Shown: in pieces, positions 44,658 through 45,464 of the stretch
Position numbering within the stretch: position 1 is the stretch's first letter
Layout of the letters: each line of letters starts with the position of its first letter
From: Blastocatellia bacterium
GTDB taxonomy: Bacteria; Acidobacteriota; Blastocatellia; RBC074
Length of the DNA stretch: 64,000 nt
Assembly: GCA_043736395.1 (NCBI GenBank)
Contig: JAYTCQ010000354.1
Span: 3,723-67,722 of the forward strand
Reading direction: 5' to 3'
Position numbers and translations under genes: made by a program
The notes under the pieces: generated by a model
Database searches by the model: none
Told to the model about the DNA's origin: nothing
Seen by the model: the letters and a program-made list of their open reading frames with translations, nothing else

Positions 44658-45464
44658 TTATGATCTTTGTCCGTTCTGATTTTCTGTCGTCAAAGTTTTC
44701 CAATGCACAGTTGGAAATAAAATTTCATTCACCAAACGCCCGCCGATCTCTTCGCCGAATGCGCGTTTTAAAAATGGATTTGCAGGTTCATCTTCAAGAT
44801 GAGATTTGATGTAATCTGCCCGGGCAAGAATTATTCGCTCCACGATGTCCGGATTTGTTTCTGGTTGTGCCGCACGTGCGCGCGTCAACCAGGCTGCTCC
44901 GACTTCACGCATCGCTGCCACTCCGATGTCCAAAGCCGGAGTTTCACCAGGTCTGCGAAAGATCGGACGTCGCGAAAAAATCTTTCGAGCTGAAGATTTC
45001 ATTTCGGGATCAGGGCCAACATTATCGAAAGGGGGTGCAATGTTATCCATGGCGTCTTCGTCACTTGCCACCAGCGGAAACATGTCTGCCGCAATTAAGT
45101 GCATCTTTTCCCGAAACACCAGCAACTCAATACCGAGAATTGGTGAAGTGTATCCGTCAGCCGGAAAGGCAACCATATTAGTGATCCATGTGCCTTCGCC
45201 GCGAATTAGCGCAACACGTCCCAGAGCAATCCCGCGTGCCTTGAATGCCGTCGTGCACATAGAGAGTTCATTGGCTCCATACGTTCCCACGACGTTGCAC
45301 AGTTCGGGAGGCAAATCTAACGGTTGATACTCAGGCAAGGTGGCAAAGCCTTCGATCAGTTCTGCGCAAGCCGAATCAAGTTCGGCAAAAATCGGCGCAG
45401 CCCCATTGTTTTTGAATACCTCTGTTGCGTGTGGCATCGTTGTGCTCACGGCTTCTGCTTTCAT
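44658..45464 (-). CDS. Ferredoxin-dependent bilin reductase (FDBR) family protein (PcyA/PebA/HY2 superfamily; 'pre-PcyA'-like).
   Basis: 'ATLPEYQPLDLPPEL...NELSMCTTAFKARGIALGRVALIRGEGTWITNMVAFPADGYTSPILGIELLVFREKMHLIAADMFPL' aligns with PcyA 'SLPLKPYQLPEDL...[61 protein letters not shown]'. C-terminal 'FLKRAFGEEIGGRLVNEILFPTV' aligns with PcyA '[22 protein letters not shown]'. AAGGAG RBS. Confidence 0.75.
   Translation of the reverse strand: MKAEAVSTTMPHATEVFKNNGAAPIFAELDSACAELIEGFATLPEYQPLDLPPELCNVVGTYGANELSMCTTAFKARGIALGRVALIRGEGTWITNMVAFPADGYTSPILGIELLVFREKMHLIAADMFPLVASDEDAMDNIAPPFDNVGPDPEMKSSARKIFSRRPIFRRPGETPALDIGVAAMREVGAAWLTRARAAQPETNPDIVERIILARADYIKSHLEDEPANPFLKRAFGEEIGGRLVNEILFPTVHWKTLTTENQNGQRS

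What the first reader, a model, noticed from the sequence alone, without database searches (positions are those of the whole stretch)
44658..45464. Ferredoxin-dependent bilin reductase homolog outside a cyanobacterial/algal context
The protein aligns over both the central beta-sheet motif and the C-terminal 'AFGE...LF' helix of PcyA-type FDBRs. It sits near a plant-type 2Fe-2S ferredoxin (its expected electron donor) and a phycobiliprotein-like globin. FDBRs in heterotrophs ('pre-PcyA' lineages) are rare and are informative for the origin of phycocyanobilin synthesis.
Basis: partly seen in the sequence, partly recalled or inferred. Interest (0 to 1): 0.85.

Follow-up and report, generated by a model that had tools for sequence, protein, structure and literature searches.

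The report
Pre-PcyA-type bilin reductase cluster, Acidobacteria
The gene is a real ferredoxin-dependent bilin reductase in a non-photosynthetic Blastocatellia (Acidobacteria) genome, sitting in the globin/V4R/iron-sulfur cluster already described for "pre-PcyA" enzymes, so it is a new and fairly divergent member of a kind known since 2023.

Summary
ORF 44658-45464 (-) encodes 268 aa that match Pfam Fe_bilin_red end to end (91.6 bits, cutoff 31). Its model has the PcyA/PebB fold (TM 0.70-0.79).

It is not PcyA, PebA, PebB or HY2: all NCBIfam equivalogs score far below cutoff. At the PcyA Glu76/His88/Asp105 positions it has Ala85/Asn96/Glu113. Asn/Thr plus Glu is the published signature of the pre-1 lineage.

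The surrounding same-strand array is [2Fe-2S] protein, V4R, unknown, phycobiliprotein-like globin (BBAG), V4R, Ser/Thr kinase, ABM protein, FDBR, coiled-coil protein. This matches the published pre-1/pre-3 cluster. The flanking MnmA gene indicates Blastocatellia, in a glacier-fed-stream metagenome.

Features specific to this locus or sub-clade:
- The FDBR sub-clade is small (about 9 sequences).
- No canonical heme oxygenase was found in the 64 kb window or in related loci.
- An ABM protein lies 11 nt upstream in about five loci, but has Ser/Tyr/His where IsdG enzymes have Asn/Trp/His.
- The kinase and coiled-coil partners are conserved.
- The globin has Gly where the bilin-attachment Cys normally sits.

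The most likely function is two-electron reduction of biliverdin to phytochromobilin for the globin. This is inferred, not shown.

Verdict: new member of a known kind, moderate interest.

The parts
44658..45464 (-). Ferredoxin-dependent bilin reductase, pre-1-like. Ala85/Asn96/Glu113/Glu226 occupy the PcyA Glu76/His88/Asp105 and HY2 Asp256 positions.
   Evidence: Pfam PF05996 91.6 bits. Fold match to PcyA/PebB. Signature columns. Asn96 and Glu113 are invariant in all 9 clade members.
45476..45784 (-). ABM-domain protein of 102 aa, 11 nt upstream of the FDBR. It resembles IsdG/HmoA-type proteins but has Ser6/Tyr65/His75 where IsdG has Asn/Trp/His.
   Evidence: Pfam ABM 53 bits. NCBIfam HmuQ 37 bits against a cutoff of 130. 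PDB hits TT1380, HmoB, IsdI and MhuD are weak. Alignment. ABM-FDBR adjacency recurs in L004/L021, L020 and L025. The homologue in L014 has no FDBR nearby.
45839..47317 (-). Ser/Thr protein kinase of 492 aa with a C-terminal domain specific to this clade.
   Evidence: Pfam Pkinase 134 bits. Full-length orthologues at the same position in L005 (47%), L004/L021 (45%) and L022 (46%); kinase-domain-only match in L011 and L026.
47404..48120 (-). V4R-domain protein, second paralogue. The likely true start is the ATG at 48057.
   Evidence: Pfam V4R 34.4 bits. Positional orthologues in L005 (48%), L022 (47%) and L011 (27%).
48078..48590 (-). Phycobiliprotein-like globin (BBAG). It has G-M-R-D where the CXRD bilin-attachment motif normally lies.
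   Evidence: Pfam Phycobilisome 90.4 bits. PDB best hits are allophycocyanin alpha and phycocyanin; the Gly aligns with the Cys of 'TCLRD'. L005 and L011 orthologues have KCVRD and KCTRD.
48599..49213 (-). Unknown protein of 204 aa, conserved in position between V4R and BBAG. It contains a repeated 'PWKxxLxxLSG' motif.
   Evidence: No Pfam hit. Genes of similar size at the same position in L005 and L011, with weak alignment.
49234..49905 (-). V4R-domain protein, first paralogue and the best-conserved cluster member.
   Evidence: Pfam V4R 68 bits. 78% identity to L005, 77.5% to L022, 56% to L011.
49943..50428 (-). [2Fe-2S] protein of 161 aa with a Fer2 domain, CX5CX2CX35C spacing and a C-terminal extension. 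It is the candidate electron donor.
   Evidence: Pfam Fer2 33.8 bits; NCBIfam best hit is ISC-type ferredoxin. Alignment with L005 (63%) and L011 (47%) orthologues.
50425..50928 (-). Unknown protein of 167 aa overlapping the Fer2 start by 4 nt. The domain recurs upstream of Fer2 in L005 and L022, and upstream of the ABM gene in L014.
   Evidence: No Pfam hit. tblastn matches.
41100..44636 (-). Coiled-coil protein of about 1170 aa, likely starting at the ATG at 44615. It has a conserved alpha/beta N-terminal domain of about 140 aa and follows the FDBR in most clade loci that extend downstream (not L017).
   Evidence: No Pfam hit. The N-domain matches the genes downstream of the FDBR in L004/L021, L005, L022, L023 and L024 by tblastn and in L018 and L019 by inspection of the translations only. 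The L005 version ends in HATPase_c. The start is supported by the L001 gene call.

Best explanation
The ORF encodes an active-type ferredoxin-dependent bilin reductase of the early-branching 'pre-PcyA' kind, most like the pre-1 lineage. It lies in a heterotrophic Blastocatellia (Acidobacteriota) genome. It is the last biosynthetic gene of a same-strand cluster: [2Fe-2S] protein, V4R, unknown, bilin-binding globin (BBAG), V4R, Ser/Thr kinase, ABM protein, FDBR, coiled-coil protein. The proposed mechanism has five steps. (1) Biliverdin IXalpha is made from heme by an oxygenase encoded outside this 64 kb window (inferred). (2) The FDBR binds it in the pocket on its central beta-sheet, with Glu113 taking the proton-donor role of PcyA Asp105 and Asn96 the place of His88 (positions shown, roles inferred). 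(3) Two electrons arrive one at a time from a [2Fe-2S] ferredoxin, plausibly the cluster's own (inferred). (4) The A-ring diene is reduced to give phytochromobilin, probably the 3E isomer, as measured in vitro for the pre-1 enzyme MCC5789364 (by analogy, PMC13446030). (5) The bilin is handed to the adjacent BBAG. Here it would be held non-covalently or through another Cys, because the canonical Cys is Gly. The V4R proteins, kinase and coiled-coil protein would act as accessory or output components of unknown role.
For: Family and fold. Not an orthologue of PcyA, PebA or PebB: the NCBIfam equivalogs score 24-51 bits against cutoffs of 206-327. [quoted passage not shown] Cluster content equals the published pre-1/pre-3 cluster of Fe-S protein, two V4R proteins, BBAG and sometimes HO (PMC10151467). 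The same gene order occurs in L005, L022 and L011. The NJ bootstrap supports the clade at 190/200, and its sister comes from the Asn/Glu group that includes L011, whose cluster carries HO, in 187/200 replicates. Profile-profile scores of the clade rank that group first (319), then the other Glu105 group (240), pre-2-like (222), PebA-like (173) and HY2-like (160). Host assignment. The strong RBS and short intergenic gaps fit one operon, and no intergenic minus-strand terminator was found.
Against: No named pre-1 reference sequence could be obtained, so lineage placement rests on the signature, the gene context, an NJ tree and profile scores rather than an ML tree with outgroup. By plain sequence the best solved relatives are PebB, PebA and HY2 rather than PcyA. 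The HY2-Asp256 position holds Glu226, whereas 'typical' pre-1 has Ser. No heme oxygenase was found in the window or in any clade locus, so the substrate source is unknown. One characterised pre-1 enzyme (POZ53557) was nearly inactive (PMC10151467). FDBR regiospecificity is poorly predicted by phylogeny (PMC13193486).
Confidence: 0.68

Rival explanations
1. The clade is a separate, uncharacterised FDBR lineage, for example one of the two unplaced lineages mentioned in PMC13193486. It would have its own regiospecificity or product and would not belong to pre-1.
For: There is a sharp score gap: 5 representatives exceed 126 bits (four of them 217 bits or more) and the next hit has 115 bits. Identity to both Glu105 groups is only 28-30%. 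Glu rather than Ser occupies the HY2-Asp256 position. phmmer ranks PebB and PebA above PcyA. The gene partners differ: no HO, with a coiled-coil protein and an ABM protein instead.
Against: It shares the Asn/Glu signature and the Fe-S/V4R/BBAG/V4R gene order with the L011-type cluster. NJ and hhalign both put it closest to that group.
Confidence: 0.2
2. The adjacent ABM protein is a non-canonical heme-degrading enzyme that replaces heme oxygenase. The FDBR would then act on its product, possibly a bilin other than biliverdin IXalpha.
For: The ABM gene lies 11 nt upstream and appears translationally coupled. The adjacency is conserved in L004/L021, L020 and L025 across GC contents of 0.47-0.72. 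No HO is present in any clade locus, whereas the sister group has HO next to the FDBR. The nearest solved structures include HmoB, IsdI and MhuD. The proximal-His position, the GF motif and the first Trp are retained.
Against: Two of the three residues that define the IsdG family are replaced, Asn by Ser and Trp by Tyr, consistently in all six homologues (triad requirement from PMC5557675). L005, L022 and L023 have the full cluster without an ABM gene. A 60%-identical homologue lies beside a coiled-coil gene with no FDBR or globin nearby and lacks the His. The NCBIfam HmuQ score is 37 against a cutoff of 130.
Confidence: 0.1
3. The FDBR-like protein is catalytically weak or inactive. It would act as a bilin carrier or sensor within a kinase/coiled-coil signalling module rather than as a biosynthetic enzyme.
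For: The pre-1 enzyme POZ53557 showed only trace activity (PMC10151467). No HO is nearby. The protein is always paired with a coiled-coil protein, which in L005 carries a HATPase_c domain, and with a kinase.
Against: The acidic residue at the Asp105 position and the pocket-forming strands are invariant in the clade. The pre-1 enzyme MCC5789364, which has the same Asn/Glu pair, is active in vitro (PMC13446030).
Confidence: 0.07
4. The gene is cyanobacterial or algal DNA mis-binned or mis-assembled into this contig.
For: The source biofilm metagenome probably contains phototrophs (my inference from the sample type; sample names).
Against: GC content is uniform across the window. Acidobacterial MnmA lies about 370 nt from the cluster on the same strand. 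The same ABM-FDBR-coiled-coil junction appears in independent assemblies. All PcyA/PebA/PebB equivalogs fail. Relatives lie in Polyangiaceae and 'Deltaproteobacteria' MAGs.
Confidence: 0.01

Closest known systems
Pre-1 lineage of pre-PcyA FDBRs (POZ53557 of Methylovulum psychrotolerans; MCC5789364 of an Opitutales MAG), Rockwell et al. 2023 (PMC10151467) and Frascogna et al. 2026 (PMC13446030)
   Same: FDBR fold. Asn at the His88 position, Glu at the Asp105 position and no Glu76. Cluster with an Fe-S protein, two V4R proteins and a BBAG. Occurs in non-oxygenic bacteria, including Acidobacteria.
   Different: Only about 28-30% identical to the other Glu105-bearing groups sampled here. Glu rather than Ser at the HY2-Asp256 position. 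No HO in the cluster or the window. The kinase, ABM and coiled-coil genes are integral to the cluster. The BBAG lacks the CXRD Cys.
PcyA (phycocyanobilin:ferredoxin oxidoreductase; PDB 2D1E and 2G18)
   Same: Best structural match (TM 0.70-0.79). Same pocket architecture and the same C-terminal AFG...LF helix.
   Different: About 18-20% identity. Glu76, His88 and Asp105 are all replaced. NCBIfam NF002760 scores 33.8 bits against a cutoff of 206. The 18-vinyl reduction that yields phycocyanobilin is not expected.
Synechocystis slr0144-slr0152 cluster (V4R proteins, Fd5/slr0148, BBAG slr0149, SpkG kinase slr0152)
   Same: Fe-S protein, two V4R proteins and a globin, with a Ser/Thr kinase beside them. 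PMC10151467 derives the cyanobacterial core cluster from pre-PcyA clusters and cites work on SpkG phosphorylating ferredoxin 5.
   Different: The cyanobacterial cluster has lost the FDBR. Orthology between the two kinases was not tested here. That Fd5 is slr0148 is from my own knowledge.
IsdG/HmoA/MhuD-type heme-degrading ABM monooxygenases
   Same: The neighbouring 102-aa protein has the ABM fold, the GF motif, the first Trp and the proximal-His position, and its nearest solved relatives include HmoB, IsdI and MhuD.
   Different: The catalytic Asn and Trp of the defining Asn/Trp/His triad are Ser and Tyr. Scores are far below the family cutoffs.

Membership tests
Ferredoxin-dependent bilin reductase family (Pfam PF05996) | Full-length match to the family HMM above the gathering score | tested here: met
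   91.6 bits against 31; profile positions 5-228 of 228
Ferredoxin-dependent bilin reductase family (Pfam PF05996) | Alpha/beta/alpha sandwich with a central antiparallel sheet, as in PcyA, PebA and PebB | tested here: met
   Model pLDDT 79.8, with a run of strands between residues 57 and 129 flanked by helices. Foldseek: PcyA, PebB, PebA, HY2 and RCCR at E 4e-13 to 1e-6, TM up to 0.79
Ferredoxin-dependent bilin reductase family (Pfam PF05996) | Ferredoxin-driven reduction of a bilin | not testable with these tools
   Requires an anaerobic enzyme assay
PcyA (EC 1.3.7.5) | Catalytic Glu76, His88 and Asp105 (Synechocystis numbering) | tested here: not met
   Ala85, Asn96 and Glu113 at the aligned columns
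PcyA (EC 1.3.7.5) | NCBIfam equivalog NF002760 above its cutoff | tested here: not met
   33.8 bits against 206
PebA, PebB and HY2 | Equivalog HMMs above cutoff; Asp at the Asp105 position | tested here: not met
   Best scores are 50.9 bits (cutoff 263) and 44.3 bits (cutoff 327). Glu113 replaces the Asp. The profile-profile score is lower than to the pre-PcyA-like groups
Pre-1 pre-PcyA lineage | Glu at the Asp105 position, Asn or Thr at the His88 position, no conserved Glu76 (PMC13446030) | tested here: met
   Glu113, Asn96 and Ala85. Glu113 and Asn96 are invariant in 9 clade members
Pre-1 pre-PcyA lineage | [quoted passage not shown] | tested here: met
   All are on the same strand within 6 kb. 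Synteny with L005, L011 and L022
Pre-1 pre-PcyA lineage | Heme oxygenase in the cluster (typical, but stated to be variable) | tested here: not met
   No PF01126 hit in any window ORF of 150 aa or more. tblastn with two cluster HOs found nothing
Pre-1 pre-PcyA lineage | Phylogenetic placement with named pre-1 sequences | tested here: inconclusive
   No named pre-1 sequence was retrievable. NJ and hhalign place the clade with other Glu105 FDBRs
Pre-1 pre-PcyA lineage | Ser at the HY2-Asp256 position ('typical' pre-1) | tested here: not met
   Glu226. The published pre-1 enzyme POZ53557 also lacks Ser at this position
Pre-2 pre-PcyA lineage | Asn88/Asp105 and a 3-gene cluster with a B12-binding protein and BBAG-2 | tested here: not met
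   Glu at the 105 position; no B12-binding domain among the neighbours
Pre-3 pre-PcyA lineage | Thr at the His88 position and Asp at the Asp105 position | tested here: not met
   Asn96 and Glu113
IsdG-family heme oxygenase (for the neighbouring ABM protein) | Conserved Asn/Trp/His catalytic triad (PMC5557675) | tested here: not met
   Ser6, Tyr65 and His75; Ser and Tyr are conserved in all six homologues
Bilin-binding globin (BBAG) / phycobiliprotein family (for the neighbouring globin) | Phycobilisome-family globin fold | tested here: met
   PF00502 90.4 bits. Allophycocyanin and phycocyanin are the best PDB hits
Bilin-binding globin (BBAG) / phycobiliprotein family (for the neighbouring globin) | CXRD motif with the bilin-attachment Cys (present in some BBAGs) | tested here: not met
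   G-M-R-D; the Gly aligns with the Cys of ApcA 'TCLRD'. L005 and L011 orthologues keep the Cys
   The sequence shows CX5CX2CX35C. The best NCBIfam hit is ISC-type ferredoxin

The most novel reading that the evidence does not exclude
In this FDBR sub-clade the canonical heme oxygenase has been dropped. The conserved Ser/Tyr/His ABM protein, translationally coupled to the FDBR, would be a new kind of heme- or tetrapyrrole-cleaving enzyme that feeds it. This would give an HO-independent bilin pathway in heterotrophic Acidobacteriota and Myxococcota. Its bilin would load a Cys-less globin that signals through the embedded Ser/Thr kinase and coiled-coil protein, possibly to the gas-vesicle genes immediately downstream.
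Probability: 0.08. Interest if true: 0.8.

Novelty: new member of a known kind. Interest (0 to 1): 0.45.

Why it matters
Pre-PcyA clusters are the proposed source of both phycocyanobilin synthesis and the globin lineage that is sister to light-harvesting phycobiliproteins. Their physiological role in non-phototrophs is still unknown.

This locus adds a well-assembled example in a low-GC Blastocatellia genome, from a small and divergent sub-clade that also occurs in Myxococcota MAGs. It shows a recurrent association with a Ser/Thr kinase, a ParA-like protein (in relatives), a coiled-coil protein and an ABM protein. These partners suggest a signalling or positioning role rather than light harvesting.

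The kinase recalls SpkG beside the Synechocystis slr0144-slr0149 cluster. The absence of a heme oxygenase raises the question of where the biliverdin comes from, which can be tested.

Tried and rejected
- **Named pre-1 reference.** I tried to anchor the tree with one. The papers' supplements hold no sequences. Cluster look-ups gave only TNE48865, which appears in no searchable paper. Matching the published residue numbers found a CAP_1520-like pre-2 sequence (P0057: V63/N74/D91/D207) but no MCC5789364 match.
- **AlphaFold database search.** The afdb50 library was unavailable.
- **Coiled-coil N-domain.** The single-sequence AlphaFold2 model had pLDDT 48 and was unusable. Pfam at E up to 1 found nothing for this domain, orf167, unk204 or orf209.
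- **First bootstrap script.** It timed out and was rewritten.
- **Promoter and terminator scans.** Counts were not above the shuffled controls.
- **RNA genes.** No tRNA genes or Rfam families were found in the window.
- **Rejected: PcyA, PebA, PebB or HY2 orthology**.
- **Rejected: canonical IsdG-type heme oxygenase for the ABM protein**.
- **Rejected: plant-type ferredoxin**.
- **Rejected: phototroph contamination**.
- **Gas-vesicle link.** I considered a functional link to the downstream gas-vesicle genes. The adjacency is not conserved in L005, L014 or L022.
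Full report
**Observation**

The ORF at 44658-45464 (minus strand) is real. It encodes 268 aa from an ATG start. An AAGGAG ribosome-binding site lies 5 nt upstream, and the stop codon of the preceding gene lies 11 nt upstream.

It matches Pfam Fe_bilin_red (PF05996) over essentially the whole profile: positions 5-228 of 228, 91.6 bits against a cutoff of 31, E 7.6e-26. phmmer against PDB sequences finds only FDBRs with significance: GtPEBB 2e-11, PebA 1e-7, HY2 6e-5 and PcyA 1.6e-3.

An AlphaFold2 model built from five clade sequences has pLDDT 79.8 and pTM 0.80, with a run of strands between residues 57 and 129 flanked by helices. Foldseek against the PDB returns PcyA (E 4e-13, TM 0.70-0.79), GtPebB (TM 0.75), PebA, HY2 and then RCCR. 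It is an FDBR.

**Which FDBR**

None of the NCBIfam equivalogs for PcyA, PebA or PebB is approached (24-51 bits against cutoffs of 206-327).

In the alignment to Nostoc PcyA, the catalytic Glu, His and Asp (Synechocystis Glu76/His88/Asp105) correspond to Ala85, Asn96 and Glu113. The HY2-Asp256 position holds Glu226. Asn96 and Glu113 are invariant in all nine members of the protein's own clade.

Frascogna et al. [quoted passage not shown] Pre-2 has Asn/Asp and pre-3 has Thr/Asp. The active-site signature is therefore that of pre-1. The one exception is that 'typical' pre-1 has Ser rather than Glu at the HY2-Asp256 position.

**How rare, and where it sits in the family**

A word-indexed search of 5.8 billion proteins found four homologues besides the protein itself, at 48-59% identity.

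A full HMMER profile search of 1.84 billion 50%-identity representatives found 559 FDBR-family proteins. There is a sharp break after five representatives (126-372 bits). The next hits score 115 bits or less.

I aligned the 150 best hits with four PDB-derived references and read the signature columns. Three groups carry Glu at position 105:
- the window's clade (x-N-E-E);
- a larger N-E-E group;
- an N/S-E-S/T group.

Most of the rest are N-D-D. [quoted passage not shown]

NJ bootstrapping supports the window's clade in 190 of 200 replicates. Its sister is drawn from the N-E-E group in 187 of 200. Profile-profile scores rank that group first (319), then the other Glu105 group (240), pre-2-like (222), PebA-like (173) and HY2-like (160).

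I could not obtain a named pre-1 sequence. Lineage placement is therefore well supported but not proven.

**Surroundings**

On the same strand, with small gaps or overlaps, lie the following genes:

| Coordinates | Product |
|---|---|
| 50425-50928 | Unknown, 167 aa |
| 49943-50428 | Fer2-domain [2Fe-2S] protein |
| 49234-49905 | V4R protein |
| 48599-49213 | Unknown, 204 aa |
| 48078-48590 | Phycobilisome-family globin |
| 47404-48120 | Second V4R protein |
| 45839-47317 | Ser/Thr kinase |
| 45476-45784 | ABM protein, 102 aa |
| 44658-45464 | FDBR |
| 41100-44636 | Coiled-coil protein, about 1170 aa |

This is the pre-1/pre-3 cluster of Rockwell et al. [quoted passage not shown]

The iron-sulfur protein has CX5CX2CX35C spacing and a conserved C-terminal extension of about 60 aa. 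Its best NCBIfam hit is ISC-type ferredoxin.

The globin has G-M-R-D where phycobiliproteins and some BBAGs have the CXRD attachment motif. The Gly aligns with the chromophore Cys of allophycocyanin alpha. Its orthologues in L005 and L011 keep the Cys.

**Host**

MnmA lies about 370 nt beyond the cluster on the same strand. It is 79-81% identical to proteins named from Blastocatellia or Acidobacteria MAGs, and every named hit among the listed best 120 comes from that group.

GC content is even across the window. Pfam scans of all ORFs of 150 aa or more show ordinary Gram-negative heterotroph genes and no photosystem, phycobilisome-linker or phytochrome genes.

The same contig junctions appear in independent assemblies of the BUSI22 metagenomes SAMN19433720 and SAMN19433703. 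The closest genome-collection relative is a GFS-labelled Polyangiaceae MAG. I read 'BUSI22' and 'GFS' as glacier-fed-stream studies from my own knowledge.

Pre-1 in Acidobacteria is already noted in both papers.

**Conservation of the cluster**

- **L005 (GC 0.48)** has the order 392-aa protein, Fer2, V4R, unknown, globin, V4R, kinase, FDBR, coiled-coil protein with HATPase_c.
- **L022 and L023 (GC 0.70-0.72)** have the same order, plus a ParA-like gene between the kinase and the FDBR.
- **L004 and L021 (Polyangiaceae)** have kinase, ParA-like, ABM, FDBR, coiled-coil.
- **L020 and L025** show ABM followed by FDBR.
- **L018, L019 and L024** show FDBR followed by the conserved N-domain of the coiled-coil protein. 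For L024 this rests on tblastn; for L018 and L019 it rests only on my inspection of the translated downstream ORFs.
- **L017** is an exception: two FA_hydroxylase genes lie upstream, and a 475-aa protein of a different type lies downstream.
- **Sister group:** L011 has Fer2, V4R, unknown, globin, V4R, ParA-like, kinase, FDBR, Heme_oxygenase. L012 has FDBR followed by Heme_oxygenase.

Within the window's clade, the position after the FDBR is therefore taken by the coiled-coil protein in every locus with downstream sequence except L017. No heme oxygenase was detected in any clade locus or in the 64 kb window. In the high-GC loci, HO detection used tblastn with only two queries, which is a weak test.

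**The ABM protein**

Its nearest solved relatives are TT1380, B. subtilis HmoB, IsdI, MhuD and IsdG, all with weak scores. NCBIfam HmuQ reaches 37 bits against a cutoff of 130.

The IsdG family is defined by an Asn/Trp/His triad that is required for heme degradation (PMC5557675). This protein and its five homologues have Ser and Tyr at the first two positions, and His at the third in five of the six.

A 60%-identical homologue, P0161, lacks the His. It lies in L014 between an orf167-like protein and a coiled-coil protein whose N-domain matches the window's, with no FDBR, globin or V4R gene nearby.

The ABM gene therefore seems to belong with the coiled-coil/orf167 (and, in relatives, PATAN-domain) module, and the bilin genes sit between that module's parts. 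It fails the IsdG membership test. A heme-cleaving role is possible but unsupported.

**Mechanism**

The fold, the family, the active-site residues, the gene order and the host are shown. The following steps are inferred.

The enzyme binds biliverdin IXalpha made by an oxygenase encoded elsewhere. It takes two electrons, one at a time, from a [2Fe-2S] ferredoxin, plausibly the cluster's own. With Glu113 in the role of Asp105, it reduces the A-ring to give phytochromobilin, probably the 3E isomer as found for Pre-1 MCC5789364 in vitro (PMC13446030). The adjacent BBAG then binds the product, non-covalently or through another Cys.

The function of BBAGs and V4R proteins is unknown even in the literature. 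The conserved kinase, ParA-like, coiled-coil/HATPase_c and PATAN partners point to signalling or positioning rather than light harvesting.

**Novelty and score**

The kind is known: pre-PcyA FDBR clusters in heterotrophs, including Acidobacteria, were published in 2023 and 2026. This is a new and rather divergent member.

Several clade-specific features are not mentioned in the main text of the two pre-PcyA papers. 'Kinase' occurs only in a reference title in one and not at all in the other, and 'IsdG' occurs in neither. The features are:
- no HO;
- the ABM neighbour;
- the embedded kinase;
- the coiled-coil partner;
- the Cys-less globin.

Their functional meaning is untested. Interest is 0.45.

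Noticed in passing
window 32363-40453 (-): A complete gas-vesicle gene set lies directly downstream of the bilin cluster on the same strand with small gaps: gvpA (35734-36000), a gvpN-like AAA gene (33844-34800), three GvpL/GvpF genes (32363-33184, 36146-36862, 36859-37671), an Hsp20/GvpH-like gene (39899-40453), a Cdc48-type double-AAA ATPase (37748-39895), a repeat-rich 249-aa protein (34856-35605) and an Asp/Glu-rich protein (31932-32333). An ArsA-type ATPase follows at 29970-31913. The adjacency to the bilin cluster is not conserved in L005, L014 or L022.
   Followed up: partly
L014 7779-13509; L005 2412-5386; window 50425-50928 and 41100-44636: A separate conserved module appears without any bilin genes in L014: a PATAN/DUF4388 protein, a protein with an orf167-like C-terminal domain, the Ser/Tyr ABM protein, and a long coiled-coil protein with a conserved alpha/beta N-domain of about 140 aa. 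In the window and L005 the bilin genes lie between its parts. Its function is unknown.
   Followed up: partly
window 45839-47317 (-); L005, L004/L021, L022, L011, L026: A Ser/Thr kinase is a constant member of these FDBR/BBAG clusters. This recalls the SpkG kinase (slr0152) beside the Synechocystis slr0144-slr0149 cluster, which is reported to be involved in phosphorylating ferredoxin 5. Orthology was not tested.
   Followed up: partly
L004 3341-4204; L021 1519-2379; L022 9222-10034; L023 768-1580; L011 7511-8296: A ParA/MinD-like ATPase gene, with a degenerate Walker A motif in the high-GC loci, recurs between the kinase and the FDBR, or between V4R and the kinase in L011. It is absent from the window.
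   Followed up: no
window 48599-49213 (-): The unknown 204-aa protein between V4R and the globin contains two copies of a 'PWKxxLxxLSG' motif (RPWKDTLQFLSG and QPWKNLLAWLSG). The L005 counterpart has similar W-x-x-T-L motifs. No family match was found.
   Followed up: no
L017 269-4665: One clade member (P0008, GC 0.69) has a different context. Two FA_hydroxylase (di-iron membrane hydroxylase) genes lie upstream of the FDBR, and a 475-aa protein that looks like a receiver plus PATAN domain lies downstream.
   Followed up: no
window 52584-56645 (+): A CbbQ/NorQ-type AAA ATPase (283 aa) is followed by a 1043-aa VWA/CobT-like protein. This is a MoxR-VWA style pair, transcribed divergently from MnmA.
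   Followed up: no
window 57443-58652 (+) and 56652-57098 (-): An AAA_33 kinase-like protein overlaps a bacterial Thg1-like tRNA-His guanylyltransferase homologue, next to an HNH endonuclease gene.
   Followed up: no
window 10488-13072 (+): An ECF sigma factor (Sigma70_ECF family) lies near a second Ser/Thr kinase gene (11945-13072).
   Followed up: no
window versus L004, L020-L024: The same FDBR clade and cluster occur in genomes with GC from 0.47 (this Blastocatellia window) to 0.72 (Polyangiaceae MAG). One V4R protein stays 77-78% identical across that range, which suggests lateral transfer between Acidobacteriota and Myxococcota.
   Followed up: partly
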